From a bacterium (GTDB lineage: Bacteria > Joyebacterota > Joyebacteria > Joyebacterales > Joyebacteraceae), in assembly GCA_025782395.1 (NCBI GenBank), contig JALGZD010000218.1, forward strand, positions 4,876 through 68,875: 64,000 nt of DNA. Reading direction: 5' to 3'. Made by a program: the position numbers and the translations under genes. The notes beneath the pieces are model-generated. The model made no database searches. It saw only the letters and a program-made list of their open reading frames with translations, and had not been told where the DNA came from. Positions 32,269 through 54,466 of this stretch are shown here, in pieces. Position 1 is the stretch's first letter. Each line of letters opens with the position of its first letter.

Positions 32269-32301
32269 CCCCGGATGCTCTGTGTGTTTCCCTGCGCCTG
32301 G

Positions 32302-34607: not shown

Positions 34608-35240
34608 CTACCCTCTGAGCTCAAACCTGATCGGCACAGCGATCTGCACCGGGACAGCGATGTCTCTCTGTTTGGCCGGTCTGAACTTCCATTGGTAGAC
34701 GGCGTCGAGTGCCGCCTGATCGAGGCCGGGCACCGACGACAGGATTTTCGCTTCCACCACATTCCCGAACTCGTCGATCCCGATCTGCACTTGCACCACA
34801 CCCTCCTGCTCCGCCTCCCTCGCCATGTCGGGATACACCGGCATAACCTGCTTGATAAGCTCAGGTGGATCATCGTACGACAGGAAGAATGTTGGTCTCG
34901 TCGGCGCCGGAGGAAGCTCCGGCGGAGCATCGACGTCCAGCTCCGTCGTCGCGATCGTCTCTTCCGCAGCTGCGTCGTCACTCGGTGCGATCTCCGTGAC
35001 GATCTTCTTCTTCACCTCTTCCACAGGGGGCGGCGGAATCTCGAACTGGTCCGGAATCGCTATCGCCTCGATCGACTGTTTCTCACGAAGCCGATACGGA
35101 CGGATCTTGAGTTCCGGGACCGTGAGGAAAGCCACGACGTGCACAACGATCGCGATCAGGAACGCATTCCTGAACATCCTGGCATACGAATCCTTGAGGC
35201 GCTGCTCTGCCGTCATGTGCACCAACATATATGGACTCAT
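34608..35240 (-). CDS. tonB: energy transducer TonB
   Basis: 210 aa. N-terminal TM, Pro-rich spacer (PPPPVEE, PPELPPAP), C-terminal TonB domain. Confidence 0.8.
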   Translation of the reverse strand: MSPYMLVHMTAEQRLKDSYARMFRNAFLIAIVVHVVAFLTVPELKIRPYRLREKQSIEAIAIPDQFEIPPPPVEEVKKKIVTEIAPSDDAAAEETIATTELDVDAPPELPPAPTRPTFFLSYDDPPELIKQVMPVYPDMAREAEQEGVVQVQIGIDEFGNVVEAKILSSVPGLDQAALDAVYQWKFRPAKQRDIAVPVQIAVPIRFELRG

Positions 35241-35301
35241 TCTCTCACGCCTTTCACTTCATCTTCTTCCGGTCACTGAAGTCCGGGCGACCCCGATCCC
35301 A

Positions 35302-35709
35302 CTAGCTCTCTTCCAGCGCTGTAGTGAACGAGACGCTCAGAGCGTTCGCTCGCTTCAACTGCTCCATCGCATCGTCCATCACTCCGTACGGTGCATTCGA
35401 ATCAGTGTTGAATGCGATGATGAGCGCCGGATTCCCCCGCAGCTTTGCCAGCACGAGAGGTTCGATATCGCTCATGCCAACTACGAGATCATCGATAGCG
35501 ACAGTCCCCGCAGCGTCTACCCAGATGTGAGCTATCTTCTCCCTCGGAATCTTCTCACCGGCCTCCGTCCTCGGCAACGAAATCGGCAGCCCTTCCTCAA
35601 GCTTGAAGATCGTAGTGACCATGAAGAAGATGATCAGCAGGAACGCGATATCCGCCATGGAAGATGTCGGAATCCTCGCTCCACTTCCCTCTTTTCTTCT
35701 CAGGTCCAA
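35302..35709 (-). CDS. exbD: biopolymer transport protein ExbD/TolR
   Basis: Track ORF 35302..35868. Start placed at TTG 35709 (GGAGGT 5 nt upstream), giving (M)DLRRKEGS...MADIAFLLIIFFMV, 136 aa. Confidence 0.75.
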   Translation of the reverse strand: MDLRRKEGSGARIPTSSMADIAFLLIIFFMVTTIFKLEEGLPISLPRTEAGEKIPREKIAHIWVDAAGTVAIDDLVVGMSDIEPLVLAKLRGNPALIIAFNTDSNAPYGVMDDAMEQLKRANALSVSFTTALEES

Positions 35710-35725
35710 TTGATACCTCCAACTG

Positions 35726-36178
35726 CTATTCCAATTCGAGTTCGAGCGCCTTGAGCGCGATGCGTTTCTCTCGCTTTGTGCCGGCCTGCGCGAGTTCGTC
35801 GTACACGACCCAGACAGCATCCAGCACCTCAACCATGCTCGCATACGGCGCGTCGGGATGAGTCTCAATCGAAATGATCAGATTCTCATTGTCTGCCAGT
35901 CGCTCCTTCAGGAGCACCTTGATCTGCGGCAACTCGGTGGCCGTCTTCTCAAGGTTGATGAAGTGAGCACCGCTCCTCGCGGTCACGACCTGCATGACGT
36001 TCTCGCGCTTGATCTGCTTCACGTCGCCCGACGCGCTCGGCAGGATCAGCGGAAGACCGATCTCCGGAAACGTCGTGCTGACAATGAAAAAGACCAAGAG
36101 CAGAAAAGCGACATCGGACATAGCCGAATCACCGACCATATCGGCAGATATTTTTGACCTTCTGCTGAACATTGCCAT
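35726..36178 (-). CDS. exbD: biopolymer transport protein ExbD/TolR (second paralog)
   Basis: 150 aa. ...MSDVAFLLLVFFIVSTTF TM, then periplasmic ExbD domain. Confidence 0.75.
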   Translation of the reverse strand: MAMFSRRSKISADMVGDSAMSDVAFLLLVFFIVSTTFPEIGLPLILPSASGDVKQIKRENVMQVVTARSGAHFINLEKTATELPQIKVLLKERLADNENLIISIETHPDAPYASMVEVLDAVWVVYDELAQAGTKREKRIALKALELELE

Positions 36179-36217
36179 TCGAGGACCTTCCTCGCGTTGC
36201 GGACAGCTGTTACCCTG

Positions 36218-37066
36218 CTACTTGCTGATCAGATTCATATCGTGCAAGGTATCGAGCATCTCGGAAGCGCTGTCCTCCATCTCGACCACGAAGCGGTCGA
36301 TGCGCTGGACGTACAGGTTGTGCGCGATCTGGAACGGAATCGCAATCACAAGACCTGTCATGGTGGTAATCAGGGCCTCCGAAATACCGCTGGCGACGAG
36401 CTTCGCGCTGACCTGCTCTGCCTGGGCGATCGCTTCGAATGCCGAGATCATTCCCGAAACCGTTCCCAGGAAACCGAGAAGCGGAGCGACGTTAGCGACG
36501 GTCGCGAGAAGAATCAGTCCTCTTTCCAGGAACGACATCTCAATAATGCCGGCCGTTTGGATGGACTTCTCTATCGATTCTGCGTCCTTGCCCTTCTCGG
36601 CCTTCAGAAGACCTGCATGAAGAATCTGCGGGATTGGGCCACGGGTGTCGGCGCAGATTGCGAGGGCATCATCCGTCTTGCCCTTCTTCAGAGCGCCCAC
36701 TACACCTTCCATAAGCTTGCGGACGTCGGTGCTGGCCTTGTGAAGCGTGATGCCTCTCTCGATGGTAACGGCCAGGCCCAGAATCGAAAGCGCCAGAAGC
36801 GCCCACATGAACCTGCCGCCCTTATTGAAGAACCTGACGAGACCGCTTGTACGGAAGCCGCCGCCGGAGGTTGTCTCGACGACCGGCGCGGCGGGCTCTT
36901 CCATCACAGCTGCCAATGAATCAACGGCCGTGGTATCTACCAATGCGGTGTCGACGGCGGTGGTCTCCGCCATCGTCGCTGCACCACCCTCCATCTGCGC
37001 ACTTGCCGGTCCGGCCAGCATCAGGGCTGTCAGCACGACTGGAATGACGTAGAGGACTCTTCTCAT
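36218..37066 (-). CDS. exbB: MotA/TolQ/ExbB proton-channel protein with N-terminal signal peptide and Ala/Thr-rich periplasmic extension
   Basis: 282 aa. Signal peptide (ALMLAGPASAQ), ~70-aa low-complexity region, then three TMs. Confidence 0.8.
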   Translation of the reverse strand: MRRVLYVIPVVLTALMLAGPASAQMEGGAATMAETTAVDTALVDTTAVDSLAAVMEEPAAPVVETTSGGGFRTSGLVRFFNKGGRFMWALLALSILGLAVTIERGITLHKASTDVRKLMEGVVGALKKGKTDDALAICADTRGPIPQILHAGLLKAEKGKDAESIEKSIQTAGIIEMSFLERGLILLATVANVAPLLGFLGTVSGMISAFEAIAQAEQVSAKLVASGISEALITTMTGLVIAIPFQIAHNLYVQRIDRFVVEMEDSASEMLDTLHDMNLISK

Positions 37067-37447: not shown

Positions 37448-37637
37448 GAGCGTGCGGTCCCCCCCCGTTCCAAGGTGAATCCTTGCGGGGGGAATGGTTA
37501 TTCGGTCTCTGCACGTCGTGCGATCTCTGCTGTGTTCATCTTCGACAGACAGGGTTGCAGGTGTAGAGTCCATTGAACCAGCCCCCAAGACAAGTGCGCA
37601 CCTTTACCACAATCAGAGTACGGAGGGACAGACAATC

Positions 37638-39056
37638 ATGATTTCGTTCCGGAGACTGGCGGCCGGTACCCTCGCAGCTGTTTTACTCGCGCTACCGCTG
37701 GTGGCGATGATCTTCCTGACGGGCTGTCGCAAGGAGGAGAAGATCCTGATCGATACGAACCTCGCCCCCAACACGCGCCTGACGAGCGCCCCGGCACCTT
37801 ACGACCAGATGAACTACAGAGTGCACATGCGCTGGGCTGGGACCGATCCGGATGGGTTCGTGGTAGGCTACTACTTCGCATGGGACGATACGATACCCGG
37901 CGTGGGAGCAGACCCCAGCGCCTGGACGTTCACAGACAGTACACACCAGCTCTTCAAGGCACAGATCGATACTGCCGGCGAGACAAGGCGGCATACGTTC
38001 TACGTGCGCGCAGTCGACAATGAGGGCTCGCTTGATCCAACCCCGGCGCGAATTCGGTTCGACGCCTGGACCATCCAGCCCGTTGTCGATTCGCTGTACA
38101 GGGCAAACGGCCCCGAGGATGCCGGCGGCGACAACTACAACCCAGGCTACAAGGATACGGTGCTGATGTATACTCCCTGTGTCTTCATCTGGGGAGGCCA
38201 TGACCCCGATGGTCAGGGAGCCCCGGTCGAGTTCAGCTACAGGCTCGACTCGGCCCCCTTCACAGAGTGGGCAGACATCACCACCGCGACAGTTGAGAAC
38301 ATCACGAGCGGCACGCACTTCTTCTATGTCAAAGCCAGAGATGAAACCGGTTCGGAGAACTTCCCTGAGAACGCGAAGTTCGTCATGAACTATGATCCTG
38401 ATTCTGAGATCCTCGAGCCCACCGAGCCGACCGGTACGCTCACCATCTCCGACCGCGACACGATCTGGTTCCGCTGGGACGCTCGCGATCGCGAGGAGGA
38501 CGAGGGTCTTGAGGGTGGCGTCATCGAGGTCTGGATCACGCTCGATGTCGGATTCCAGAAGAGGTTTACCTACGACGGTCCACCCTACACGGGCGAGTGG
38601 TACTTCACGTCGAACACTTTCGCGTCAGACGAGCACTACATATCCAGCATCAACAAACCGACGGGCGGCAACAACAGCCACTTTTTCGCGATCTATGCCA
38701 AGGATGTCGAGAATCGCTTTGAGACGACCAGTGAGCTCGAGTCCGACCACGAACTATACATGTTCTGGTACAACTTCCCTCCAACGTCCGAGATCACATT
38801 CCCAGCCGCAGGTAACATGGTTCCTCAGGACTTCACGGTGACGTGGGAAGGAACCGACATCGACGGCGAGATCGTCCACTACCAGTATGTTCTCGACCCC
38901 TTGATCAACAGCTGGCAGATAACCGAGGACAACTTCATGGAGTATGAGGACATCGAAGTGGGCGAGCACAAGTTCAACGTTCGCGCATTGGATAACGCCG
39001 GATGCTGGGAAGAGGGTTACCAGGAAGTGATATTTCACGTGTCAGACAGCAAATAG
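37638..39056 (+). CDS. lipoprotein with PKD-like Ig-fold repeats (W-x-G-x-D-x-D-G-x-I-x-x-Y)
   Basis: 472 aa. Lipobox LTGC. Start ATG 37638 after GGAGGG. Four repeats such as NYRVHMRWAGTDPDGFVVGYYFAWDD and FTVTWEGTDIDGEIVHYQYVLDP. Confidence 0.65.
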   Translation: MISFRRLAAGTLAAVLLALPLVAMIFLTGCRKEEKILIDTNLAPNTRLTSAPAPYDQMNYRVHMRWAGTDPDGFVVGYYFAWDDTIPGVGADPSAWTFTDSTHQLFKAQIDTAGETRRHTFYVRAVDNEGSLDPTPARIRFDAWTIQPVVDSLYRANGPEDAGGDNYNPGYKDTVLMYTPCVFIWGGHDPDGQGAPVEFSYRLDSAPFTEWADITTATVENITSGTHFFYVKARDETGSENFPENAKFVMNYDPDSEILEPTEPTGTLTISDRDTIWFRWDARDREEDEGLEGGVIEVWITLDVGFQKRFTYDGPPYTGEWYFTSNTFASDEHYISSINKPTGGNNSHFFAIYAKDVENRFETTSELESDHELYMFWYNFPPTSEITFPAAGNMVPQDFTVTWEGTDIDGEIVHYQYVLDPLINSWQITEDNFMEYEDIEVGEHKFNVRALDNAGCWEEGYQEVIFHVSDSK

Positions 39057-39107
39057 GAGTGAGGGACTCCCCCTGTGTGCAACAGATACAAGGAGGAACA
39101 GGAGACG

Positions 39108-41045
39108 ATGATCGGTTTCAAGCGAACTCTGGCAGTGCTCCTGATCACCGGGATCTTGATCGTGGTTCTGCTGGCTGGATGCACCAAGTTCAGCCCAGGC
39201 CGTGTGGACGAGAACATCCCCCCGGAAACGACGCTCTCCTTCGCACCGGATGAGGGCGATCACGCGAACTATCGTGTGAGGATGAACTGGTTCGGCTGGG
39301 ATCCCGACGGAGAGATAAATTACTACTGGACCAAGTGGGACACGTTCGACTGGGTAAGGGTGGTGAGCACGGACAGCGTTTTCCATGTTTCCGCGCATGC
39401 CGACAGCGTCGACTCGCTGAAGGGGTACGAGTACCACAGCTTCAGCGTGAAGGCCGTCGACAACGAGGGGGCCGAGGACCCGTCACCGGAGAATATCTCC
39501 TTCACTGCGTTCACTCTGGTTCCGGATACGCACATCCTGCGAGGACCGTCCGGTGTCACCGGACCGATGGTCACGTTCGAGTGGAGTGGCACAGACCGTG
39601 ACGGTGTCATCGCGTCCTATGCGTACAGGCTCTTCCGCTGGGAAACATCCGTGCCGGGCTGGATTGAGGTTGCAAACCAGGACAGCCTGGGTGCGGAGCA
39701 TACGGTCGCGAACTTCGGGCCTCTGGCGGGCCTCCACAAGTTCGAGGTGTGCGCAACCGACGATGCTGGAGCGTCGGATCAGAGTCCCGCCGTGAGAGAG
39801 TTCACGTGCAACCCGGAGCTCGCCGGTCCCAAGCTCTACGCCTACTCCAACATCTTCGGCCTGAGGGTGTTTCGCGGGCCGGTGTGGAATCCCGACTACA
39901 ACCTACCCACACCGATCTTTGCAGGAGAAAGGCTTTCTTTCCGGTGGGCAGCATCGGCTGAGTCGTACGGCGGTCAGGTAATGGGGTACCGCCACGCATA
40001 CGACGACACCTCCACCTGGCCGGCATGGTCCGTCTATGACATGGAGTTCACTGTCACGCCAACGCTCGGCAGACACTCGCTCTATGTCAGCGCTATCGAC
40101 AACTCCAACGTCGTGACACGGGGCAGATTCTCCTTCGATGTTGTAGAGGCCACTCTCGACGAGTTCATCCTGATTGTCGACGACTGGGATGACGACGAGG
40201 GATCGGCTAGCCGACCGACCGACGAGGAACGGAACGCGTTCTGGAATGGCTTGCTCGCCGGCTACGAACACCAGCGCCTGGAGTGGCAGCCGGACCAGCA
40301 TCAACACAGCGGCGAACCGCAACCACCGGACGTTGAGACATTGAGGAGCGCCTCTACAGTGATCTGGTATGCGGACCTCTGGGATGAGACATCGGAACTT
40401 GCTGACCTGTTCAATCCGCAGCTCCAGGGGTACAATACGCTGGCGGGCTACATGCGGGTCGGCGGGAATCTCATCTTGTCCGGATACAACTGCCTCGAGC
40501 AGATAACGCAACAGTCCTACCCGATGGAGATCACCGATACGGACACGACCGAGGGAGCTCGCTTCGTCAGAGACATCCTCCACATCGGCGCGGCCGACGC
40601 AAGCGGAAACAATTACAACAAGAACTCGCCGTGGGCATACGGCTATTGCTTCTACGGCGACATACCGAGCGACGCCGGTGAGTCCTACGGGTTCGAACCC
40701 ATGTATATCGACAGCGTGGGTCCCGGTGGCTATCCCGAGCCCGGGAAATGGTGGATGTACACGTCGTCACACGTGAACTTGTCCCGGTGTGGTTTCCCCG
40801 ATGTGGAGAAGCTGCAAACGTACCACGGCTCCGGTCTCGAGATCTTCACCATCCACCCGTATCTCAACATGAACTACGATGGCATGACATCCGCTGTTCT
40901 CTACCTCTCGGGTGATGACCGTGGCAACACATGCTACTTCGGCCACCCGCTCTATTTCCTCCAGACGGACCAGGTCGCCCCCAATTTCGACCGTGTCATG
41001 GCCCTCTTTGGAGAACAGAAGGCGGTGCTGATCGGGCAAGACTAG
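39108..41045 (+). CDS. paralogous lipoprotein with PKD-like Ig-fold repeats
   Basis: 645 aa. Lipobox LLAGC. Start ATG 39108 after AAGGAGG. Repeats NYRVRMNWFGWDPDGEINYYWTKWD and VTFEWSGTDRDGVIASYAYRL. Confidence 0.65.
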   Translation: MIGFKRTLAVLLITGILIVVLLAGCTKFSPGRVDENIPPETTLSFAPDEGDHANYRVRMNWFGWDPDGEINYYWTKWDTFDWVRVVSTDSVFHVSAHADSVDSLKGYEYHSFSVKAVDNEGAEDPSPENISFTAFTLVPDTHILRGPSGVTGPMVTFEWSGTDRDGVIASYAYRLFRWETSVPGWIEVANQDSLGAEHTVANFGPLAGLHKFEVCATDDAGASDQSPAVREFTCNPELAGPKLYAYSNIFGLRVFRGPVWNPDYNLPTPIFAGERLSFRWAASAESYGGQVMGYRHAYDDTSTWPAWSVYDMEFTVTPTLGRHSLYVSAIDNSNVVTRGRFSFDVVEATLDEFILIVDDWDDDEGSASRPTDEERNAFWNGLLAGYEHQRLEWQPDQHQHSGEPQPPDVETLRSASTVIWYADLWDETSELADLFNPQLQGYNTLAGYMRVGGNLILSGYNCLEQITQQSYPMEITDTDTTEGARFVRDILHIGAADASGNNYNKNSPWAYGYCFYGDIPSDAGESYGFEPMYIDSVGPGGYPEPGKWWMYTSSHVNLSRCGFPDVEKLQTYHGSGLEIFTIHPYLNMNYDGMTSAVLYLSGDDRGNTCYFGHPLYFLQTDQVAPNFDRVMALFGEQKAVLIGQD

Positions 41046-41091
41046 AACCTCGAATCACCACCAAACCGCAGGTTCGGCGAACTACACACAC

Positions 41092-41123
41092 GAGCGCCTG
41101 GAGCAGAAATGCTCCAGGCGCTC
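41092..41123. terminator. perfect 14-bp inverted repeat with GAAA tetraloop between convergent genes, probable bidirectional intrinsic terminator
   Basis: GAGCGCCTGGAGCA-GAAA-TGCTCCAGGCGCTC read directly. Lies between the stop of 39108..41045(+) and the stop of 41271..42341(-). Confidence 0.5.
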
Positions 41124-41270
41124 GTCGTTGCCGCACATACCCTTCCCGCACGATGCCACACGGAAACGCCCAGAGACAATCACTGCCCCTGGGCATTCCC
41201 TTCTGCACATTCCTCTACCGCACCCACCAACACCATTCCGGGAGACCCACCGAGATACACACGGTAGTAC

Positions 41271-42341
41271 CTAGAAGATGAAAGTCACTGAGAATCTGTC
41301 AATGTGGTCCAGATTCCCCATGTCCGCGTAGGCATAGTCGACCCGAACCGACGCCTCGCTGGTCGGGAAAAGCAGGCCGGCTCCGAGTGTCAATCCCTCT
41401 TCATCATAGTTGAAGCGGTAGCCGGCACGCCCAAACAGGAAGAGACTGTCCCTGTTGAACGTATACTCGGTCCCGACGCTCATGCGATCGGCCCCATCCG
41501 GCGTTCGCTTGTAGTCCCCTGCTACGGTGACGCGGTGGGTCACCACATCGAAAACCCTCATCGATGCGCCGGCTCTGTACGTGGTCGGCATCGGGAAGTC
41601 ATCTCCGAACCCACTCTCTGAACCCGTTCGGGACCAGTGGTTGGCAGGACCGAGATTCATCACCGAGGCTCCCACCCGCAGATTCCGAATGCGGGTCTCA
41701 TAGAGAACACCGAGATCCCCGGTCAGGCCTTCACAGAACGCCTCGGCCATCCCGAGGTGATACCACCGGACCGTCCCGCCGACCGAGAGACCGTCGCCGA
41801 AATCCCAGCAGTAGCTGCCTCCGAACGCCATGTCCCCCGCGTCGACCTTTTCCCCAGTACCGATTCCGAATTCGCTGTCGGGATTGTAGTACTCGGTCTT
41901 CTCGGCGTAGGGACTCATCTGCATCACGGCCCAGCTGAACGCGAACGTGCCCGGTAGAACGCTGTGATGAAACCCGTAGCTCACGTGCTGGTATGAGATG
42001 TCCCCGGGCCACGTCGATGTTTCGATATGGATCTCGCTGGCCTCCATGAGCCTGAGTCCAGCCGGATTGTAGAACACGGTCAGTGCATCGTCAGCGAGCC
42101 CTGTGAATGCGCCTCCCAGCCCGATCTGCCTCGCGCCTACGTCCATTTCGAGGAAGCTGGCGAGATGTGTCCCGGCTCCACCGGCGAAGCCCGCCTGTGG
42201 AACGCAGAGCAGCAGTGATAGCGCGCCTATCACAAGCAGGTGTCGTCGCAAGTAGTATCTCCTTTCAACATCCCCCGATCGAAGGCATACAGAAGGGGGA
42301 TACTTCACCTTGGGAACAAGCAGATCCGTATCAGAAAGCAA
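41271..42341 (-). CDS. FadL/PorV-PorQ-family outer-membrane beta-barrel protein
   Basis: 356 aa. Motif VGARQIGLGGAFTGLADDALTVFYNPAGL. The true start is probably internal, near the signal peptide LLVIGALSLLLCVPQAGFA. Confidence 0.6.
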   Translation of the reverse strand: MLSDTDLLVPKVKYPPSVCLRSGDVERRYYLRRHLLVIGALSLLLCVPQAGFAGGAGTHLASFLEMDVGARQIGLGGAFTGLADDALTVFYNPAGLRLMEASEIHIETSTWPGDISYQHVSYGFHHSVLPGTFAFSWAVMQMSPYAEKTEYYNPDSEFGIGTGEKVDAGDMAFGGSYCWDFGDGLSVGGTVRWYHLGMAEAFCEGLTGDLGVLYETRIRNLRVGASVMNLGPANHWSRTGSESGFGDDFPMPTTYRAGASMRVFDVVTHRVTVAGDYKRTPDGADRMSVGTEYTFNRDSLFLFGRAGYRFNYDEEGLTLGAGLLFPTSEASVRVDYAYADMGNLDHIDRFSVTFIF

Positions 42342-43302
42342 CCGTCATCCCGACGCGATGAACGCCTCCGAGATAGCCGAAGTCCGCATAGCTGTAGTCG
42401 ACACCGACCCAACCGAGAGACCCGACAAAGACCTTTGCCCCACCTCCGGCTGAGAACGTTTCCTCATCGTAGTTCATCTTGTAGCCGACGCGCGCGAAGT
42501 ACGTCTCATTGAGAGCGTACTCCGCTCCCACATTGATCTTCTCGGATGTGTCGGACGGGTGCCGAAACTCGGCCGCGACCGTCACCCTTTGCCCGGGTGT
42601 ATCGATAACCCTCATCGAGATTCCGAACTTGAACGTCGCCGGCACCGGGACATCTTCGTCAATGTAAGCGCCGCCCGGACCCATGTTCTGGATTGCAAGG
42701 CCGATCTTCAACGATCGGAAGCCAGTGTCGTATAGAGTCCCGAAATCCAACAGGAATCCCTCGATGTAGTAGTCGCCGAGCCCCTCGACCCCCAGCACAG
42801 AAAGATCCCCTAGACTGGAGTGAACCCACTTCATCGTGCCGCCGGCTGCAAACTTGTCGGTAAAGATCCTCGCGTACGTAACTCCAACGGCCAGATCACT
42901 GCACTGGAAATCAACCCCCACACCCTCCGGGACATCAGCAGTCCTCACGGCCATCGGATCCATGGAAAGCGAAGTCACGCTGACACCGAGAATCCCGGGA
43001 ATGAAACCGGGGCGCATGGCGTAGCCGAAGTACTGATGGGCGATATCGGCAGGCCACGCGGCATACGTGAAGAGAACCGTTGGCTCGGTCACATACCTGA
43101 GCCCAGCGGCGTTCCAGTAAAGCGACTCGATCCCCTCTGCCGCCCCTACCATCGCCTCACCCATCGCCGTCCCACGAGCCCCCGCTCCGATCTCAAGGAA
43201 TTGAAAGCCGGCTGTGCCGACCTTCTCGAACATCTCCGTGGCTGACGCCGGCACCGCCAGAACACCCACAGCCAGCAGAATCAGCAGAAGCTTCCGAGTC
43301 AA
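42331..43302 (-). CDS. FadL/PorV-PorQ-family outer-membrane beta-barrel protein
   Basis: 323 aa. Signal peptide MTRKLLLILLAVGVLAVPASA. Motif IGAGARGTAMGEAMVGAAEGIESLYWNAAGL. Confidence 0.6.
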   Translation of the reverse strand: MTRKLLLILLAVGVLAVPASATEMFEKVGTAGFQFLEIGAGARGTAMGEAMVGAAEGIESLYWNAAGLRYVTEPTVLFTYAAWPADIAHQYFGYAMRPGFIPGILGVSVTSLSMDPMAVRTADVPEGVGVDFQCSDLAVGVTYARIFTDKFAAGGTMKWVHSSLGDLSVLGVEGLGDYYIEGFLLDFGTLYDTGFRSLKIGLAIQNMGPGGAYIDEDVPVPATFKFGISMRVIDTPGQRVTVAAEFRHPSDTSEKINVGAEYALNETYFARVGYKMNYDEETFSAGGGAKVFVGSLGWVGVDYSYADFGYLGGVHRVGMTVAF

Positions 43303-43364
43303 GAACTTCCTCCTTCCGCCGGTCGGCAGGCGCGTCCGGGCTCATGCCGCCGGCACCACATCAG

Positions 43365-45692
43365 CTACTTGATGATCGCGAACTTGCCGATCGTTTCTCC
43401 CACAGGTGAGTCGATGTGGTACAGATAGACACCACTCACAATGATCTGATTGTTTCGAGATATCATGTTCCAGCACGCGTCACCGCCTGATTCCTCAGCA
43501 TCCGGATGGAGTGTCTTAACGAGCTCCCCTCCAAGTGAGTAAATCCTGACGATCGCATCGCGTGGCAGATTCTGGAAGCAGATTTTCTCTCCGGTTGGAT
43601 CCGTGTCGTCGGGCGCAAGGTTCCAGCGCGCCATGTACTCATGATCGACGTAGGGATTCGGTACTACGCGCACATCGTCCAACGTGTTGTGCACGGCCGA
43701 ACCGGGGATGACGAGAGTCTTGTTCTGCGAGTATTTCCCGTAGTGATAGCCTTCTGCCGTGCTGTCATACGCGGTGACGGAGTACCAGTAGGCGAAACCG
43801 TTCTTCACCAGCGTGTCGACGAAGGCATACTTCCCGATGCCCTCAAGCCCTGTGTCCCATTCCTCCAGCTCGACGCCACCATCGCCCTTGTCTATATCAA
43901 GGATGAGCTGCCAGTCCTGGTCGCGTGGCTCGGTCGATTCCCTCGTCCACCCGACGGCCTTCCAGACCTGGTAGCCGAAGAAGTCTCTGATTCTCGTCAA
44001 CGGATCTTCGAGCTCCTCAGGATAGTCGTCCCACTCGATGCGAACGAAGCGATCTCCCGACGTGATCTCCTGGGCCGGCGGAGGCGGAGGCGTATCGGCC
44101 ACCCAGTGGATGCGCACGCTCTCCGGCTCGCCTATGCAGTTGGGAACGGTCTGAGTGATGCCATTATAGATCTGCTGCGCCGTCGCAGCGTTCTCCAGCA
44201 TTCCATCGAAACCCTGCCCCAGCACGAACGCGTACTGAAACTCGAGTGTGTCGCCCGGCACGATCTCTCTGAAGGGCCCGGCTGAGAGGAGAAGGCGGTA
44301 GTCCTGCGGCGATTCCGCGTCCCGGTCGATGTTGACCATGTACTCGTCTTCTTCGTCGATATCGCCATCGTTGTCGTTATCGATGCCGTCCAGAAGCGGA
44401 TAGTCGGCTTCCCCTCTCAGGAGGCGATAACGATCCCTGTCGTGATTCGGATCCTCAGCACCGATCGACCAGATGCTGAACGCGTGGACCTGGACCCTCG
44501 TGGGGGCACTCGGCAGATTCCCCGGCAGCAACGTATCGGCGCTGATCGTCGGGTGACCGAGGAACATGCAACCAATGTAGCCGCCGGCCGTGTTGCCGTC
44601 CTGCCCATATGGATCGTCGAACATGTAGCAGAGTGACATCCGCAGAGTGTCGAGTTTTGCGGGGTCGTTCGGATTCTGGCTTGTGACCGTCGTGTCGATG
44701 TAGCCGCCGCGGTCATCTTGCCAATAGAAGAGATCGTTCTCGTCGGGACCGGCGTCCGCATCTACCATGAAGCCGACGTACGCCATGCGAATCGTGTCGT
44801 CACCTACGTTCGTGACCTGGTAGTTGATTCCGACAAAATCGTCCGTCTTCTCGCTCGTCCACTGGTAGCTTTCCTGAATGACTCTGAGACCCAGGCTCTT
44901 GTGAAGATCGATCGACGCGTTCCCGTTGACGTCCTCTTCATAAATGTCCGCGTAGATCATCCGGAACATCTGCTGCGAGATAGCAGCGAAATCTTCGTCT
45001 ACGAGGCCGTCGTCGTCATTGTCGACGCCGTCCAGCGGATCTTCATCGTACCATTCAAACGGCGCATCTTCGAAAAAGACGTGATCCGAGCAGTCGCCGT
45101 CATCGTCTGCGAATCTTGTGCTGTTCGCGCCGCCCTCCCAGGCTTCGTAGATTACCGCCAGAAAGTCATCAGGATCGGGGCGGAATTCCTGCTGGTAGAC
45201 GGCCGCCGTGACCAGCGTGTCGGGAGCTCCAGTCACATCATCCCGAACAATGCCCCCGAACCACAGACCTGCTGCATAGAGATACTCGTTGTTGCTGCCC
45301 GCCGGCCACTCGCAGGATGGATTGTTGAGATCGCCGCCGAATCTGCCGAAGAAACCCAGATTGCTGACGTGAAGCAGCACCTGCCCGACATTATGATACC
45401 AACCGAAATAGACATAGATCCGGCTCTCAATTTCACGCATCGCCTTTTCGTAGCCTGGATCGCTCGGGTCCATCCGTGCATCCGCGTCGCCTGGAATATA
45501 GACGACCATCATCGAGATGAGAGACACGAGCACGATCGCTGCTGCCAGCCGTCGTGCCGCAGGGAAAATGGTGCGTCCTCTTTTCTGACTAATCGTGCCA
45601 AGAATCATCAACAACCTCCGTACCGATTTCCCGGCGATCGTTACGCGTCGGTCGACCGGATCCAGGAAAACCCTCTGATCGACCAGACACAA
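43365..45692 (-). CDS. large secreted acidic protein with calcium-binding-type DxDxDG repeats and a type-A T9SS C-terminal sorting domain
   Basis: 775 aa. Signal peptide near LAAAIVLVSLISMMVVYIPGDADA. Repeated DGVDNDDDGLVDED and DGIDNDNDGDIDEED motifs. C-terminus ...IVRIYSLGGELVKTLHPDAEE...SGVYLYHIDSPVGETIGKFAIIK matches the type-A CTD. No HExxH motif seen. Confidence 0.7.
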   Translation of the reverse strand: MCLVDQRVFLDPVDRRVTIAGKSVRRLLMILGTISQKRGRTIFPAARRLAAAIVLVSLISMMVVYIPGDADARMDPSDPGYEKAMREIESRIYVYFGWYHNVGQVLLHVSNLGFFGRFGGDLNNPSCEWPAGSNNEYLYAAGLWFGGIVRDDVTGAPDTLVTAAVYQQEFRPDPDDFLAVIYEAWEGGANSTRFADDDGDCSDHVFFEDAPFEWYDEDPLDGVDNDDDGLVDEDFAAISQQMFRMIYADIYEEDVNGNASIDLHKSLGLRVIQESYQWTSEKTDDFVGINYQVTNVGDDTIRMAYVGFMVDADAGPDENDLFYWQDDRGGYIDTTVTSQNPNDPAKLDTLRMSLCYMFDDPYGQDGNTAGGYIGCMFLGHPTISADTLLPGNLPSAPTRVQVHAFSIWSIGAEDPNHDRDRYRLLRGEADYPLLDGIDNDNDGDIDEEDEYMVNIDRDAESPQDYRLLLSAGPFREIVPGDTLEFQYAFVLGQGFDGMLENAATAQQIYNGITQTVPNCIGEPESVRIHWVADTPPPPPAQEITSGDRFVRIEWDDYPEELEDPLTRIRDFFGYQVWKAVGWTRESTEPRDQDWQLILDIDKGDGGVELEEWDTGLEGIGKYAFVDTLVKNGFAYWYSVTAYDSTAEGYHYGKYSQNKTLVIPGSAVHNTLDDVRVVPNPYVDHEYMARWNLAPDDTDPTGEKICFQNLPRDAIVRIYSLGGELVKTLHPDAEESGGDACWNMISRNNQIIVSGVYLYHIDSPVGETIGKFAIIK

Positions 45693-45698
45693 AGGCGA

Positions 45699-48428
45699 CT
45701 ACCAGTCGATGGCGACTCCAACCCTGATGACGCGCCCCTCGAAAAAGGTGGACGGATCGTGCAGGGGTTCGAGAACTTCACGTCCCTCGGGATCAGTCTC
45801 GACATAGGCTCCGCCCAGATTCCCGGTCTCCGTGTAGTACTCGGCCCCGTAGTTGCCCAGACCCGTGACGTTCCGCTTGTCGAACACGTTGAGCGCCTCA
45901 AAGAAGAGCCGGAACTCGCGTCCATAGAGCCTGTACTTCTTCGTACCCCGCAGATTGACCGTCGTGTGAGACGGGAGCCTGCCGGAGTTCACGGACTCGG
46001 GATCGATCTGCTTTTGACCAAGATAGACCGGGGTGTAGGGCGTCCCACTGCCGTAGCTGTAGTCGAATGTCATTTCCCAGTTACCCGGATCACTGACGAA
46101 GAGAAAACCGGTCAGCGTGTGACGTTCGTCCCAATCGAGAGGGATCTCCTTCAGCGGCTGCCTCGGAAGTCCGAGAGCCTCTGCATTGGCGCCCTGGTTC
46201 TCATCCGAACTCACGCCCGTGGCCTGAAGCCACGTGTACGATACATTGCCGGAGAAGAAATTCGAGAATCTCTTCGTGAGTCTGAACTCGACTCCCTGAA
46301 CGGACGAGTAGTCCTTGTTCACGTATGTGTAGACGGAGCCTTCAGTCGGACCTCTCTGGTACTCCTCCGTAGCGAGGAGACCGAAGATGTCCTTGTAGAA
46401 GCCCGTGATATCCACGGCAACGTTCTGCGAGAACTGATGCTCCGCTCCGAACTGGTACGAAGTCGTAACCTCCGGCTCCAACCCCGAGTATCCAATGACC
46501 CTGCCCCCTGCAGCCTCAGCAATATCCTCGCCCGCGGCATAGTACGCGACAAGGCGGGGCATCTGATAGAAACGGCCGTAGTGGAAATGAAGGGCGTCCC
46601 GATCGGAGATCGGATGCGCGATTCCGAGCCTTGGACTCACGACCGCGGAGATCCTCTCCCGCCAGATCTCGTACTCACCGATACCCGATGACGAACCAGG
46701 ATCCGACCAGTCGAGCCTCAACCCCGCGCGGACAATCATGCCCTCATAGCGCATGCGATCTTGAACATAGAAGGCGCCGTTCGCCGGGAAGCCTTCGTAG
46801 ATATTGTGGCGGAAGCGCTCGCTCGTGTTGAGAGCCTCGTCCCAGTCGAAAAACTCGAAACTCGGATCGAGAGTATCGGTCGCACTCGGAATCAACGCCC
46901 CCAGACTGAGGCTCTTGACGAAAAGCTCGTTGTAAATCACTTCCAGACCCGTTCTGAACTGATGCGTCTCGTTCGGCTGATTCGTGACATCGGCCTTGAA
47001 AGTCGTCGCGGTCGTGGTCTGGTATGACCAACCCAGATTGTCCCCCCAGGCCCGGAAATAGCCGGTCTCAGGGTTCAGATCGTTGTCCGAATCCGGATCC
47101 GTCGTCCTGTTCCCACCGACGTAGGCCTCCCACCAGTAGTCGTTCGGATCCTCGTGGAGCCAGAATTTCTCCTCCGATTCGAAATGCGCGAACCTCACTG
47201 TGTAGAAAACGGACGGGCTGACGGTGTCACGCCAGACCAGCTTCTTCTGGGTGAACTGACTCCTGACAGTCGGCGTGTGCTCGGCTGCATTGTAGTATTT
47301 GTACGTCTCATCGAGCGGCACGTGCGACCAGTCTTCGTCTTCAACCGACCAGTAGCCCGATCGTGAGTACCTGTGGCTGTAGAAATCACGCTTGGTACTC
47401 GACAGCAGATACTCCGCTGTGAGCTTCCGCGTGGGTGTCACGAAGTACGACAGTTTTGCCTGGGTCGTGGCGAACATGCTCTGGCGGGGTCTGAACTCTA
47501 TTCCCCAGAACAGGTCTTCACTCTCGCGTGCCTCATTCGTCTTGAGGTACGTATCTGCGAAGCGCCCCTCGCCCGAAACATAGTATCGGACTTTCTCCGT
47601 GAACAGAGGGCCGCCGAAGCCAAATGCGAGGTTATCGAAATTGTCGAACGTCTTCTCCGGAGCTCCGTAGTCATCGGTCATGTACTTTATCTCGCCCGAG
47701 AAAGCGCGACCACCTTCGCGGGTCGCAAGGTTGATAACACCCGACTGCACGTTGCCGTACTCGGCGTCGAAACCTCCGGAAAGGAGATCGAACTCCGAAA
47801 GCGATGAGAGGCTGACCTCGAGCCCCGTCCCTCCCGTCGCACTGTTGGAGATAGCGATACCGTCAACATACATCTTCACTTCTGAGGCACGGCCGCCTCT
47901 GACGTGTATCTCTCCATCATGCAGAACAACGCCCGGCTGAGTCGCAATGGCCTCTGCAACTGTGTTGATGGGCCGGATCTTCGTCTCTTCGGTGTCTATG
48001 AAGCGGCGGGTCCCGCTGTCTTCTACGTCGATCATCGGACGCTCCGCCTGGACGACGACCTCAGGCGCCTGGAGTACCTCGGCCACCAGAGTGAGATTTA
48101 CCTCGGTGGAACGATCAGCGTCAACCACCACATCGTCAACACGTTGAGCCTCGTAACCCATGTAGCTGACCTGAATAACGTAGGTCCCGACAGGGATAAG
48201 ATCGATGATGTACTCGCCGTTCGGATTCGTCATGCTCCCGTAGGGCGTGCCCAGGATCGAGACATTGGCAAACGCCAGCACCGCGCCACCATCGCTCCTG
48301 ACAGTGCCGACGATCTTGCCGGTGCTCTGAGCAAGTGCCGGCGCGGCCCCGAGCACAACACCCACAAGGCAGAGTACGGCGACGCACGTTAGAGCACAAT
48401 CCCGGGACTTCGGTCTCGGAAGTTTCAT
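45699..48428 (-). CDS. TonB-dependent outer-membrane receptor with N-terminal carboxypeptidase-regulatory-like domain
   Basis: 909 aa. Signal peptide. CarbopepD_reg region (GKIVGTVRSDGGAVLAFANVSILG...NPNGEY), plug domain, long beta-barrel, C-terminal aromatic residue (…GVAIDW). Confidence 0.9.
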   Translation of the reverse strand: MKLPRPKSRDCALTCVAVLCLVGVVLGAAPALAQSTGKIVGTVRSDGGAVLAFANVSILGTPYGSMTNPNGEYIIDLIPVGTYVIQVSYMGYEAQRVDDVVVDADRSTEVNLTLVAEVLQAPEVVVQAERPMIDVEDSGTRRFIDTEETKIRPINTVAEAIATQPGVVLHDGEIHVRGGRASEVKMYVDGIAISNSATGGTGLEVSLSSLSEFDLLSGGFDAEYGNVQSGVINLATREGGRAFSGEIKYMTDDYGAPEKTFDNFDNLAFGFGGPLFTEKVRYYVSGEGRFADTYLKTNEARESEDLFWGIEFRPRQSMFATTQAKLSYFVTPTRKLTAEYLLSSTKRDFYSHRYSRSGYWSVEDEDWSHVPLDETYKYYNAAEHTPTVRSQFTQKKLVWRDTVSPSVFYTVRFAHFESEEKFWLHEDPNDYWWEAYVGGNRTTDPDSDNDLNPETGYFRAWGDNLGWSYQTTTATTFKADVTNQPNETHQFRTGLEVIYNELFVKSLSLGALIPSATDTLDPSFEFFDWDEALNTSERFRHNIYEGFPANGAFYVQDRMRYEGMIVRAGLRLDWSDPGSSSGIGEYEIWRERISAVVSPRLGIAHPISDRDALHFHYGRFYQMPRLVAYYAAGEDIAEAAGGRVIGYSGLEPEVTTSYQFGAEHQFSQNVAVDITGFYKDIFGLLATEEYQRGPTEGSVYTYVNKDYSSVQGVEFRLTKRFSNFFSGNVSYTWLQATGVSSDENQGANAEALGLPRQPLKEIPLDWDERHTLTGFLFVSDPGNWEMTFDYSYGSGTPYTPVYLGQKQIDPESVNSGRLPSHTTVNLRGTKKYRLYGREFRLFFEALNVFDKRNVTGLGNYGAEYYTETGNLGGAYVETDPEGREVLEPLHDPSTFFEGRVIRVGVAIDW

Positions 48429-48504
48429 GGTCTCATCATCTCCTCGGGGGGTTTCCGAATACAGATACCCACCTCATCGTCCTGGATGGACGAGGGTCGG
48501 TTGC

Positions 48505-48533
48505 TCATCGTCTCTCTAAGCGGCATACTACAA
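48505..48533 (-). promoter_or_regulatory. consensus-like sigma70 promoter (TTGACA-17 nt-TAGTAT) upstream of the TBDR operon
   Basis: On the minus strand, TTGACA is the complement of 48528-48533 and TAGTAT the complement of 48505-48510. About 75 nt upstream of the TBDR ATG at 48428. Confidence 0.4.
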
Positions 48534-48569
48534 CCGACTATCACTGTTGTCAATAGCTTTTTCCCCGCG

Positions 48570-49376
48570 TTAACTCGCCGTGTCGTACTCAGTTGCGAGC
48601 ATTTGAGCCACCTCGATTTCATCCTTGCTGAGCTCTCCTTCACTGAGCTTCAGACCCCATGCCTCAACGAACCCGGACATGACAGCGCGGGCGACCTCCT
48701 CGAAACCGACAGTACGATTGAGAAGAGCTGAAAGATCGGTCGTTCTGGAACGCAATAGCCGCCGCACGATTCCGCGCCGCTCCTCGCTGTCGATGAGCAT
48801 CAAATCGGCAAGCTGCTCGTGCGTGGAGTCCATAAGAAGCGAGCCGTGCTGCAGCATGCCTCTCCCCACGCGGCGTTGTGCGCTGCCTATCAGCTTCCGG
48901 CCGACGACGACGATCTCGTAGCGCCCGGAACCTACGAAGCAGGGTGGACTTGCCCCACCATCGCGGCCCCGTGCCGCAGGGACGACCGAGGCCAGTTCAG
49001 CCTCGACCCCCAACAGCCGGAGTCCCGCCAGGAGGGCGTCCGCAATCGCGCTGTACGCTTCCATGATCGAAGTGCCGATCGGCGATGTTCCCGACGGGGC
49101 GATGACCGAGTACGTGAGCTCCCCCGCGTGGAAGACGGCACGCCCGCCGGTAGGTCGCCGGACAACTCCGGCGCCGGCGCGCATGCATGCGCCAATGTCG
49201 AGCTCCGAATCGAGCGCTTGGGAGTACCCTATCGACACGGTCGGCGGCTCCCACGCGTAGACGCGAATGGTGGGTGGCGTCGTCCCCTGATTGACGCCCA
49301 GGAGCATGGCTTCATCGATGGCCATGTTCGTAGCGCCATCGTGGGCGCCGTCATTGAGAAAACGCCACGTCTGCAT
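48570..49376 (-). CDS. lipoate-protein ligase / octanoyltransferase family protein (BPL_LplA_LipB catalytic domain only)
   Basis: 268 aa. ...RRPTGGRAVFH...GRKLIGSAQRR motifs of the LplA/LipB/LipM catalytic domain. No C-terminal LplA accessory domain. Confidence 0.7.
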   Translation of the reverse strand: MQTWRFLNDGAHDGATNMAIDEAMLLGVNQGTTPPTIRVYAWEPPTVSIGYSQALDSELDIGACMRAGAGVVRRPTGGRAVFHAGELTYSVIAPSGTSPIGTSIMEAYSAIADALLAGLRLLGVEAELASVVPAARGRDGGASPPCFVGSGRYEIVVVGRKLIGSAQRRVGRGMLQHGSLLMDSTHEQLADLMLIDSEERRGIVRRLLRSRTTDLSALLNRTVGFEEVARAVMSGFVEAWGLKLSEGELSKDEIEVAQMLATEYDTAS

Positions 49377-50115: not shown

Positions 50116-50122
50116 GGTTTCC

Positions 50123-50968: not shown

Positions 50969-50971
50969 CGG

Positions 50972-51616: not shown

Positions 51617-51631
51617 GAATATCGACTCCGA

Positions 51632-52855: not shown

Positions 52856-52865
52856 ACCGTCCCCG

Positions 52866-53501: not shown

Positions 53502-53574
53502 CGATTCCTCCAGATGCTGCTTGTGGGTCGTACTCCGCCGCCGTTCATCGGCCGCGGCGCGGAAGAGCGCGAGA

Positions 53575-54420: not shown

Positions 54421-54466
54421 CGCTACCTCCGGATGCCTGGACAGCGGCGCGCGAGATCGGGAACCG

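What the first reader, a model, noticed from the sequence alone, without database searches (positions are those of the whole stretch)
41271..48554. Single-strand operon: sigma70-like promoter, TonB-dependent receptor, T9SS-CTD cargo, then two FadL/PorV-like barrels
Behind a near-consensus TTGACA-17-TAGTAT promoter sit four genes: a 909-aa TonB-dependent receptor, then 7 nt later a 775-aa acidic secreted protein with DxDxDG calcium-binding-type repeats and a clear type-A T9SS C-terminal sorting domain, then two paralogous PorV/PorQ-FadL-like beta-barrels. A perfect 14-bp GAAA-tetraloop hairpin ends the unit.

Pairing an outer-membrane importer with a T9SS-exported, probably surface-anchored binding protein and dedicated PorV-like shuttles looks like a PUL-like nutrient-capture module. 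It is built from T9SS cargo, not a SusD lipoprotein.
Basis: partly seen in the sequence, partly recalled or inferred. Interest (0 to 1): 0.75.

Follow-up and report, generated by a model that had tools for sequence, protein, structure and literature searches.

The report
TonB transporter with PorV-tethered surface protein
An uncultured sediment bacterium carries a conserved operon that joins a TonB-powered outer-membrane transporter to an unannotated secreted protein with a type IX secretion tail and to two PorV-like barrels. This gene combination recurs in several bacterial phyla, and I found no description of it in the papers I could search.

Summary

- **Transporter:** the first gene encodes a 909-aa TonB-dependent transporter with a CarboxypepD_reg extension, a TonB box and a plug.
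- **Protein X:** it is 747 aa, not 775, and starts 90 nt after the transporter gene, not 7. It is acidic (pI 4.1). Its fold is a beta-supersandwich of the type found at the N-terminus of glycoside hydrolases, then FN3-like domains, then a C-terminal domain (CTD).
- **The CTD:** it fails the type-A CTD models. It is nevertheless homologous to a genuine CTD in the same window and resembles the PorZ C-terminus structurally.
- **Barrels:** both pass the PorV/PorQ family model. Neither is a PorV or PorQ orthologue.
- **Promoter and hairpin:** the TTGACA box is invariant in 11 relatives. The hairpin has a 16-bp stem, lies outside the given coordinates and sits between convergent genes.

X, the transporter and a PorV-like barrel stay linked in Eisenbacteria-like lineages, Calditrichota, Kryptonia and Ignavibacteria. 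A ThuA/GIFT-like lipoprotein and further CTD proteins usually accompany them. In this phylum ExbB-ExbD-ExbD-TonB lies alongside.

The most likely function is a surface-capture and import complex in which PorV-like barrels hold a CTD protein, in place of a SusD lipoprotein. A PorF-like role in type IX secretion and Oar-like protein export are not excluded. Whether the genome has the core type IX secretion genes could not be tested.

The parts
48525..48553 (-). Sigma-70-like promoter candidate, TTGACA-17-TAGTAT, directly after the stop codon of the lipoate ligase gene
   Evidence: Pattern scan, 10 of 12 matches. TTGACA is invariant in the same spacer of 11 relatives, and the -10 region is AT-rich but variable. 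No transcript data.
48429..48524 (-). 5' leader of the transporter gene, with a conserved hairpin (about 48496-48472, CCUCGUCC...GGACGAUGAGG) and an invariant GAGGAG Shine-Dalgarno sequence
   Evidence: Alignment and RNAalifold of 11 relatives. No Rfam match.
45699..48428 (-). TonB-dependent transporter, 909 aa: signal peptide, CarboxypepD_reg N-terminal extension (39-114), TonB-box-like PEVVVQAERP, plug (140-229), barrel ending in W
   Evidence: Pfam PF13620 62.7 bits and PF07715 30.3 bits. TIGR01785 aligns over residues 124-907. TonB box and RGGR plug motif are conserved in orthologues from three phyla. Orthologues hit PF00593. The NCBI gene call has the same length.
43365..45608 (-). Protein X, 747 aa (the mechanical ORF runs up to 45692): Sec signal peptide, acidic Ca-binding-type loops, beta-supersandwich N-domain (about residues 65-480), PPPPP linker, FN3-like domain, C-terminal CTD-like beta-sandwich (43368-43700)
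42331..43302 (-). PorV/PorQ-family outer-membrane barrel 'PorVa', 323 aa
   Evidence: NF033709 190 bits (cut-off 90). PorQ and PorV equivalog models score 69 and 68 bits (cut-offs 220 and 250). The only PDB relative is F. johnsoniae PorV 6h3i_F, E 1.2e-3. A PorV-family gene lies directly downstream of X in 52 of 64 loci with enough flank.
41271..42251 (-). Second PorV/PorQ-family barrel 'PorVb', 326 aa (TTG start behind AAGGAG; the mechanical ORF runs up to 42341)
   Evidence: NF033709 134 bits. 32% identical to PorVa. Start codon. Present only in the clade close to the window.
41090..41125 (.). Perfect 16-bp GC-rich hairpin with a 4-nt loop, between the convergent operon and lipoprotein genes; probable terminator for one or both directions
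   Evidence: Equally strong hairpins of different sequence sit in the same spacer in six relatives. No T-run.
39075..41045 (+). Lipoprotein 'Lipo656' (lipobox LLAGC): FN3/PKD-like beta-sandwiches plus a C-terminal ThuA/GATase1/GIFT-like alpha/beta domain; probable accessory component of the module
37494..39056 (+). Lipoprotein 'Lipo520' (likely start MISFRR..., lipobox LTGC), with repeated beta-sandwich domains and a C-terminal Y_Y_Y domain; paralogous N-terminus to Lipo656
   Evidence: Pfam Y_Y_Y 39.9 bits. Always paired with Lipo656 in relatives. Lipo520-like matches lie inside the operon in the Calditrichota-type loci L070, L073 and L075 and in L076.
34608..37066 (-). ExbB (37066..36218), ExbD (36178..35726), ExbD (about 35658..35302), TonB (35240..34608): the energising system next to the module
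   Evidence: Pfam MotA_ExbB, ExbD and TonB_C. ORFs. The same cluster follows the transporter-X-PorV genes throughout the phylum.

Best explanation
The locus encodes a conserved outer-membrane complex built around a TonB-dependent transporter.

Inferred mechanism:
1. Protein X crosses the inner membrane by the Sec pathway, using its signal peptide.
2. X reaches the cell surface through its type IX secretion-style C-terminal domain (CTD).
3. X then stays tethered because that unusually conserved CTD remains bound to a PorV/PorQ-family barrel. PorU and PorZ are held in the same way by PorV and PorQ.
4. On the surface, X uses its Ca-binding acidic loops and its glycoside-hydrolase-type beta-supersandwich domain to bind, or possibly modify, a substrate that probably contains glycan.
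5. X passes the substrate to the 22-strand transporter, which the neighbouring ExbB-ExbD-ExbD-TonB system opens through the TonB box.
6. The two convergent lipoproteins act as further surface accessory proteins.

In short, it works like a SusC/SusD-type utilisome in which a CTD protein docked on PorV replaces the SusD lipoprotein.

Shown: the identities of the components, the folds, and the conserved gene linkage. Inferred: surface location, tethering through the CTD, the direction of transport, and the nature of the substrate.
For: - Component identities.
- CTD residues VPNPY, NLP, N719, Q721 and Y728 are invariant across 36 homologues. This fits a retained docking domain better than a signal that is cut off and discarded.
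- Linkage: the transporter lies directly upstream of X in 46 of 56 loci with enough flank, and a PorV-family gene directly downstream in 52 of 64. In Calditrichota, Kryptonia and Ignavibacteria the same kinds of gene recur in a different order, with overlapping stop and start codons between the transporter and PorV genes.
- The three proteins diverge at similar rates between clades: about 42/43/41% identity, then about 26/25/33%.
- ExbBD-TonB is adjacent.
- PorV binds newly secreted CTD proteins, and PorQ-PorZ forms a barrel-plus-surface-protein subcomplex, in P. gingivalis (PMC10947112).
- The accessory lipoprotein has a ThuA/GIFT-like fold, which is also found as a domain in GH42 enzymes.
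Against: - X has no recognisable catalytic domain and no predicted ligand.
- There is no SusD, regulator, carbohydrate-active enzyme or inner-membrane permease in the operon.
- The transporter fails the SusC/RagA model.
- X is much more conserved than I would expect of nutrient-specific PUL partners.
- The CTD fails TIGR04183 and PF18962.
- The core type IX secretion genes were not seen in the 64-kb window, and the rest of the genome could not be searched.
- Some genomes hold a second X paralogue without a transporter or PorV neighbour.
Confidence: 0.45

Rival explanations
1. A type IX secretion accessory or attachment-type module. The transporter would be the counterpart of P. gingivalis PorF, a TonB-receptor-like outer-membrane protein needed for normal type IX secretion output whose role and partners are unknown. 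X would play a PorZ/PorU-like role as a CTD-bearing surface protein that handles glycan. The two barrels would play the PorV and PorQ roles. The module would then serve attachment or glycan supply for CTD cargo in general, not nutrient capture.
For: - PorF is described as a TonB-dependent receptor plug-domain protein. Its mutant behaves like porQ and porZ mutants in gingipain activity, and its authors suggest that it imports glycans for A-LPS biogenesis or linkage (PMC12704123; PMC5445135).
- The X CTD matches best the C-terminal parts of the PorZ and PorU models and the PorZ structure.
- A two-barrel-plus-CTD-protein layout mirrors PorV-PorU and PorQ-PorZ.
- Very high conservation and roughly one copy per genome suit core machinery.
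- The window holds genuine CTD cargo.
Against: - The N-terminal part of X has no sequence or fold similarity to PorZ (two beta-propellers, from my own knowledge) or to the PorU peptidase. No cysteine is invariant in X.
- The barrels score far below the PorV and PorQ equivalog cut-offs, and a third or fourth paralogue sits elsewhere in the window beside its own cargo.
- Orthology of the transporter to PorF could not be tested because the PorF sequence was not obtainable with these tools.
Confidence: 0.22
2. Oar-like TonB-dependent export. The transporter would move X, and perhaps other CTD proteins of the operon, outward across the outer membrane, and the PorV-like barrel would receive and hold them. 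This would be a compact CTD secretion route that does not need SprA/Sov.
For: - M. xanthus Oar has the same architecture (CarboxypepD_reg extension, TonB box, plug, 22-strand barrel). It is encoded in a gene cluster with a complete Ton system and is required for secretion of the protease PopC (PMC6434023).
- Here the transporter likewise sits beside ExbB-ExbD-ExbD-TonB.
- It is always linked to one or two proteins that have a signal peptide and a CTD.
- No core type IX secretion gene was seen in the window.
Against: - Nearly all characterised TonB-dependent transporters are importers.
- CTD cargo unlinked to any transporter exists in the window, so another translocon is needed anyway.
- Ignavibacteria, which have the module, also carry many Por-tail enzymes (PMC3534657). 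That fits a standard type IX secretion system.
- There is no evidence that a folded 75-kDa protein could pass a 22-strand barrel.
Confidence: 0.12
3. Conserved neighbours with no physical coupling. The transporter would be an ordinary importer kept next to the Ton genes. X would be an ordinary type IX secretion cargo, and the barrels general PorV-family shuttles.
For: Synteny in this phylum extends to clearly unrelated genes such as the lipoate ligase, DUF6754 and PF13941 genes. Some of the linkage therefore reflects slow genome rearrangement.
Against: - The transporter, PorV and X stay together in distant phyla where the surrounding genes differ and the order is shuffled.
- Coding regions there overlap or lie within a few bases of each other.
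- The three proteins diverge at similar rates.
Confidence: 0.1

Closest known systems
SusC/SusD-type utilisomes (PULs) of Bacteroidota, including RagAB
   Same: A TonB-dependent transporter with a CarboxypepD_reg-type N-terminal extension is encoded with surface-exposed partner proteins. Accessory lipoproteins are built from beta-sandwich domains. The partner has a carbohydrate-binding-type fold.
   Different: There is no SusD-like gene. The transporter fails TIGR04056 (30 bits against a cut-off of 368, and only the N-terminal extension aligns). The partner carries a CTD and is encoded with PorV-family barrels instead of being a lipoprotein. No regulator or carbohydrate-active enzyme is present. 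The module occurs roughly once per genome and is strongly conserved, whereas PULs are many and variable.
Type IX secretion attachment complex PorU-PorV / PorZ-PorQ, and the orphan component PorF (P. gingivalis)
   Same: PorV/PorQ-family barrels are encoded beside a surface protein whose CTD resembles those of PorZ and PorU. A TonB-receptor-like outer-membrane protein (PorF) belongs to the type IX secretion parts list, with unknown function.
   Different: The barrels are not PorV or PorQ orthologues. X shares no N-terminal domain with PorU or PorZ. A relation between this transporter and PorF is untested. In P. gingivalis, PorF has no reported interaction partners.
Oar and its Ton system of Myxococcus xanthus
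   Same: Same domain architecture: CarboxypepD_reg extension, TonB box, plug and barrel. Same genetic proximity to a dedicated ExbB/ExbD/TonB set.
   Different: Oar is not linked to PorV-like barrels or CTD proteins. Its substrate PopC has no CTD. Nothing here shows export.
PorP/SprF-like barrels encoded next to type-B CTD cargo (e.g. SprF-SprB)
   Same: The principle is the same: a dedicated outer-membrane barrel encoded next to the CTD protein that it carries or anchors. [quoted passage not shown]
   Different: The barrel family differs (PorV/PorQ, not PorP/SprF; the PorP model scored only 19 bits in the Ignavibacteria orthologue). The CTD is type-A-like, not type B. A TonB-dependent transporter is part of the set.

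Membership tests
TonB-dependent transporter | Plug domain | tested here: met
   PF07715 30.3 bits, cut-off 23.9. The RGGR motif is invariant in orthologues.
TonB-dependent transporter | 22-strand C-terminal barrel | tested here: inconclusive
   The window protein gets no PF00593 hit at E<=0.1, but TIGR01785 aligns over residues 124-907 at E 5.9e-15. Orthologues hit PF00593. The barrel itself was not modelled.
TonB-dependent transporter | TonB box between the N-terminal extension and the plug | tested here: met
   PEVVVQAERP, conserved as EVVV(I/Q)(G/A)E(K/R)P in Kryptonia and Ignavibacteria orthologues. The match is to the motif only.
SusC/SusD PUL | SusC/RagA-subfamily transporter plus an adjacent SusD-like lipoprotein | tested here: not met
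   TIGR04056 30 bits against a cut-off of 368. No SusD-family hit on any of the seven genes scanned in and beside the module.
PorV/PorQ family (NF033709) | Family model above its curated cut-off | tested here: met
   190 and 134 bits, cut-off 90. NCBI names close relatives 'PorV/PorQ family protein'.
PorV or PorQ proper (NF033710 / NF033711) | Equivalog model above its cut-off | tested here: not met
   PorVa scores 68 (PorV) and 69 (PorQ); PorVb scores 23 and 55. The cut-offs are 250 and 220.
Type IX secretion type-A CTD (TIGR04183 / PF18962) | Match to the curated CTD model | tested here: not met
   No hit, even at E 10, for the whole protein or for the last 111 aa.
Type IX secretion type-A CTD (TIGR04183 / PF18962) | C-terminal beta-sandwich of about 80-100 aa, homologous to known CTDs | tested here: met
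Type IX secretion system (as a system) | Core genes in the genome: SprA/Sov, PorK/L/M/N, PorU | not testable with these tools
   None was found among the window ORFs scanned.
PorF (PG0534) family | Orthology to P. gingivalis PorF or F. johnsoniae Fjoh_0118 | not tested
   The PorF sequence was not obtainable. The only shared feature is the general description 'TonB-dependent receptor plug-domain protein'.
Oar-type TonB-dependent transporter | CarboxypepD_reg N-terminal extension, plug and barrel, encoded near a Ton system | tested here: met
   PF13620 62.7 bits. ExbB-ExbD-ExbD-TonB lies about 4 kb downstream here and directly after the module in the sister clade. Architecture as described in PMC6434023. 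A role in secretion is not testable.

The most novel reading that the evidence does not exclude
The transporter/PorV-family/CTD-protein module would be a distinct, ancient way of handling CTD proteins in the FCB (Fibrobacterota-Chlorobiota-Bacteroidota) radiation. A TonB-energised 22-strand barrel would work directly with a PorV-like barrel, either exporting CTD proteins in the manner of Oar or feeding the glycan needed to attach them. If so, it would explain why type IX secretion in Porphyromonas needs the enigmatic TonB-receptor-like PorF.
Probability: 0.12. Interest if true: 0.9.

Novelty: new variant of a known kind. Interest (0 to 1): 0.6.

Why it matters
Three points would matter if the reading holds.

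- **A second way to build a transporter complex.** It would show that surface partners of a TonB-dependent transporter can be CTD proteins docked on PorV-like barrels and need not be lipoproteins. That would tie type IX secretion to TonB-dependent transport.
- **A role for a large unannotated family.** It would give a first functional context to X, which has about 9,000 representative clusters at 50% identity, no Pfam or NCBIfam model, and is a conserved core gene in the Ignavibacteria, Kryptonia, Calditrichota and Eisenbacteria-like genomes sampled.
- **A lead on PorF.** The consistent genetic coupling of a TonB-receptor-like protein to PorV-family barrels gives a concrete hypothesis for what PorF does in type IX secretion. 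Ignavibacterium, Melioribacter and Caldithrix have cultured species in which to test it, provided they carry the module.

Tried and rejected
- **RNA families:** an Rfam scan of 40900-48700 at E<=1 found nothing.
- **Sequence search of solved structures with the X profile:** only a chance hit to an acidic stretch.
- **Domain scans of nine longer proteins that share the X N-domain:** no Pfam family in any, so no borrowed annotation was available.
- **AlphaFold-database fold search:** the library was unavailable.
- **Literature:** searches for 'Eisenbacteria' plus 'type IX secretion', and for PorV in Ignavibacterium, Melioribacter, Caldithrix or Kryptonia, gave no description of this module. The Ca. 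Effluviviacota genome paper mentions neither type IX secretion nor TonB.
- **Source contig:** the look-up through Lipo656 was 'not on record'.
- **Core type IX secretion genes:** 47 window ORFs were scanned. Only a weak TPR-type match of BamD to the PorW model appeared.
- **X as a PorU-like cysteine peptidase:** rejected, because X has no invariant cysteine and no peptidase fold.
- **X as a glycoside hydrolase:** rejected, because it has only the accessory supersandwich and no catalytic domain.
- **Horizontal transfer of the operon:** rejected. GC content is flat at 57-61% across 30-56 kb, and synteny is conserved across the phylum.
- **Internal promoters or terminators in the 90-, 62- and 79-nt gaps:** none beyond chance-level weak stems.
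Full report
**What is there.** The region holds four consecutive minus-strand ORFs. NCBI gene calls for identical proteins from a 153,976-nt contig give lengths of 909, 747, 323 and 326 aa.

- Protein X starts at ATG 45608, behind a GGAGG Shine-Dalgarno sequence. The fourth gene starts at TTG 42251, behind AAGGAG. Homologue lengths agree.
- The intergenic gaps are therefore 90, 62 and 79 nt. The '7 nt' gap and the 11-nt overlap come from taking the longest possible ORFs.
- GC content is flat at 57-61%, so the region looks native.
- The closest named relatives are MAGs labelled Candidatus Eisenbacteria, or Ca. Effluviviaceae from seep and hydrothermal sediment. The latter lineage has been proposed as the phylum Ca. 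Effluviviacota (PMC11323493).

**Gene 1 is a TonB-dependent transporter.**

- It has a CarboxypepD_reg N-terminal extension (62.7 bits) and a plug domain (30.3 bits).
- A TonB-receptor model aligns over residues 124-907.
- A TonB-box-like PEVVVQAERP lies between the extension and the plug, and the RGGR plug motif is present. Both are conserved in orthologues from Eisenbacteria, Kryptonia and Ignavibacteria.
- It is not a SusC/RagA member: TIGR04056 scores 30 bits against a cut-off of 368.

**Genes 3 and 4 are PorV/PorQ-family barrels.**

- They score 190 and 134 bits on NF033709, whose cut-off is 90. They are 32% identical to each other.
- Both fall far below the PorV and PorQ equivalog cut-offs. 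I treat them as a separate subfamily.
- The only solved relative is F. johnsoniae PorV, at E 1.2e-3.

**Protein X belongs to a large family with no annotation.**

- It matches no Pfam or NCBIfam family.
- It has 440 close homologues, all annotated 'hypothetical'. A profile search finds 9127 representative clusters at E<=1e-3, many of them sharing only the N-terminal domain. Nine of those longer proteins also lack any Pfam domain.
- It has a Sec-type signal peptide and is very acidic, with mature pI 4.11.
- It carries invariant DDDxD and DED...DxDxDGxxDED blocks. A third such block is an insertion specific to this clade.
- An AlphaFold model (pLDDT 75, pTM 0.74) shows three parts:
  - a PPPPP linker followed by an FN3-like domain;
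- No catalytic glycosidase domain is present.

**The C-terminal domain (CTD) is CTD-like but fails the curated models.**

- TIGR04183 and PF18962 give no hit.
- It aligns to the TIGR04183-positive CTD of another protein in the same window at E 1e-8. It also matches the C-terminal parts of the PorZ and PorU models.
- A family-wide insertion after the VPNPY strand probably explains the model failure.
- Several CTD residues are invariant in 36 homologues.

**Promoter and terminator.**

- TTGACA-17-TAGTAT is present. Such sites occur at chance frequency here: 3 found, 3.5 expected.
- In the lipoate-ligase/transporter spacer of 11 relatives, TTGACA is invariant. The -10 region stays AT-rich, and a leader hairpin and a GAGGAG Shine-Dalgarno sequence are conserved.
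It has a perfect 16-bp stem, and its loop reads GAAA only on the plus strand. It sits between convergent genes and has no T-run.
- Six relatives have equally strong hairpins of unrelated sequence in the same spacer. That supports a structural, terminator-like role.

**The genes are a conserved unit.** I scanned GTDB species-representative genomes with the X profile, then mapped the window proteins onto the loci found there and onto three found earlier by contig look-up. Among the 75 non-duplicate loci that carry X:

- The transporter lies directly upstream of X in 46 of 56 loci with enough flank. It lies elsewhere in the locus in 5 more.
- A PorV-family gene lies directly downstream of X in 52 of 64 loci, and elsewhere in the locus in 7 more.
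- Five loci hold an orphan X paralogue with neither neighbour.

The clade close to the window adds PorVb and two convergent lipoprotein genes, followed by ExbB-ExbD-ExbD-TonB. The sister clade has a GWxTD protein in that position.

At 24-28% identity to X, the same kinds of gene recur in Calditrichota, Kryptonia and Ignavibacteria:

- The Kryptonia and Ignavibacteria-type loci (L074, L078, L079) have the order X, a second CTD protein (TIGR04183 45 bits in L079, with an ExeM/NucH-like OB-fold stretch), a lipoprotein that in L074 is homologous to Lipo656, the transporter, PorV, and a sixth gene that carries NHL repeats in L074 and L079.
- Another locus (L071) has the order transporter, PorV, NHL lipoprotein, X, lipoprotein, CTD protein.
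- In these operons, stop and start codons overlap or lie within a few bases.
- Across Ignavibacteria and Kryptonia, X orthologues are 50-58% identical and all are unannotated.

**Interpretation.** The shared anatomy is a TonB-dependent transporter, a PorV-family barrel, one or two CTD proteins and one or two lipoproteins.

*Best reading (about 0.45):* an outer-membrane capture-and-import complex.
- The difference is that the partner would be held by a CTD-barrel interaction. I think the barrel acts as an anchor for a retained CTD, not as a transient shuttle. PorU-PorV and PorZ-PorQ work this way (PMC10947112).
- The folds of X and Lipo656 lean towards a substrate that contains glycan.
- The strong conservation, the near single copy and the absence of regulators or enzymes argue for a fixed housekeeping substrate, not a variable nutrient.

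*Rival 1 (about 0.22):* a PorF-like role.
- P. gingivalis type IX secretion needs PorF, a TonB-receptor-like protein. Its partners are unknown, and glycan import for A-LPS has been suggested as its role (PMC5445135; PMC12704123).
- The module here could be a genomic footprint of that link.
- I could not obtain the PorF sequence to test orthology.

*Rival 2 (about 0.12):* Oar-like export.
- M. xanthus Oar has the same architecture, lies next to its own Ton system, and is needed for secretion of PopC (PMC6434023).

*Rival 3 (about 0.1):* neighbours with no coupling.
- The cross-phylum linkage makes this unlikely.

**What could not be tested.**
- No core type IX secretion gene lies in the 64-kb window, and the rest of the genome was out of reach.
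- Indirect support exists. The window holds a TIGR04183-positive cargo protein next to yet another PorV-family barrel, and the module's second CTD protein passes the type-A CTD models in the loci tested. Melioribacter enzymes are reported to carry Por tails (PMC3534657).
- There are no transcript data.

**Verdict.** The database annotation of the parts is ordinary (TonB receptor, hypothetical protein, PorV/PorQ family). The module as a conserved multi-phylum unit, and the X family itself, were not described in the literature I could search. I rate it a new variant of a known kind, with interest 0.6.

Noticed in passing
window 16892-21291 (-), with BamD at 16100-16879: A second pairing of CTD cargo with a PorV-family barrel. 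A 568-aa protein with FlgD-Ig repeats and a genuine type-A CTD (TIGR04183 35.9 bits) is followed directly by a 513-aa PorV/PorQ-family protein (163.6 bits) that has a C-terminal extension of about 220 aa. It is preceded by a 361-aa ORF with a weak PorV-like N-terminus. BamD lies immediately downstream. PorV-family barrels therefore seem to be expanded in this organism and paired with individual CTD proteins.
   Followed up: partly
window 49432-59541 (-): A conserved upstream block: a PF13941 'MutL' protein, a 374-aa protein, two DUF6754 proteins (428 and 407 aa), several small membrane proteins with no family, then the lipoate ligase. At least the PF13941 protein, one DUF6754 protein, three unannotated small proteins and the ligase recur in the same order in the sister clade (L002). 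The function is unknown and it is probably unrelated to the module.
   Followed up: partly
window 48570-49376 (-); L079 4224-9897: A lipoate-protein ligase gene sits directly upstream of the module here. In one Ignavibacteriales locus the ligase gene lies about 5 kb upstream of the module, in a block with lipoyl synthase (directly upstream of X) and 2-oxoacid dehydrogenase genes. This could be coincidence or very old synteny.
   Followed up: no
window 48472-48496 (-): A conserved hairpin in the 5' leader of the transporter gene, with a second upstream GACGAUGAG copy that could pair as an alternative. No Rfam family matches. It may be regulatory.
   Followed up: partly
window 26548-33603 (-); L002 13154-14695: GWxTD-domain proteins flank a TolC/HlyD/MacB-type efflux set beside the Ton genes. 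In the sister clade a 513-aa GWxTD protein takes the place of PorVb and the lipoproteins, directly after PorV.
   Followed up: no
L043, L044, L052, L056, L057: Some genomes carry a second X paralogue (about 41% identity) with no transporter or PorV gene within 10 kb. Examples are OZ244210.1 at 3.99 Mb and the MAG BC1.91.
   Followed up: partly
window 2118-5909 (-): A McsB-type protein arginine kinase (359 bits on PRK01059.1-4, just under its 385-bit cut-off) lies next to a ClpC/ClpB-like AAA+ protein. To my knowledge this pair is best known from Firmicutes, and here it sits in a diderm candidate phylum.
   Followed up: no
window 44295-44360 (-), X residues about 405-425: The third acidic Ca-binding-type block of X (LLDGIDNDNDGDIDEEDE) is an insertion found only in the clade close to the window. 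The first two blocks are invariant across the family.
   Followed up: partly
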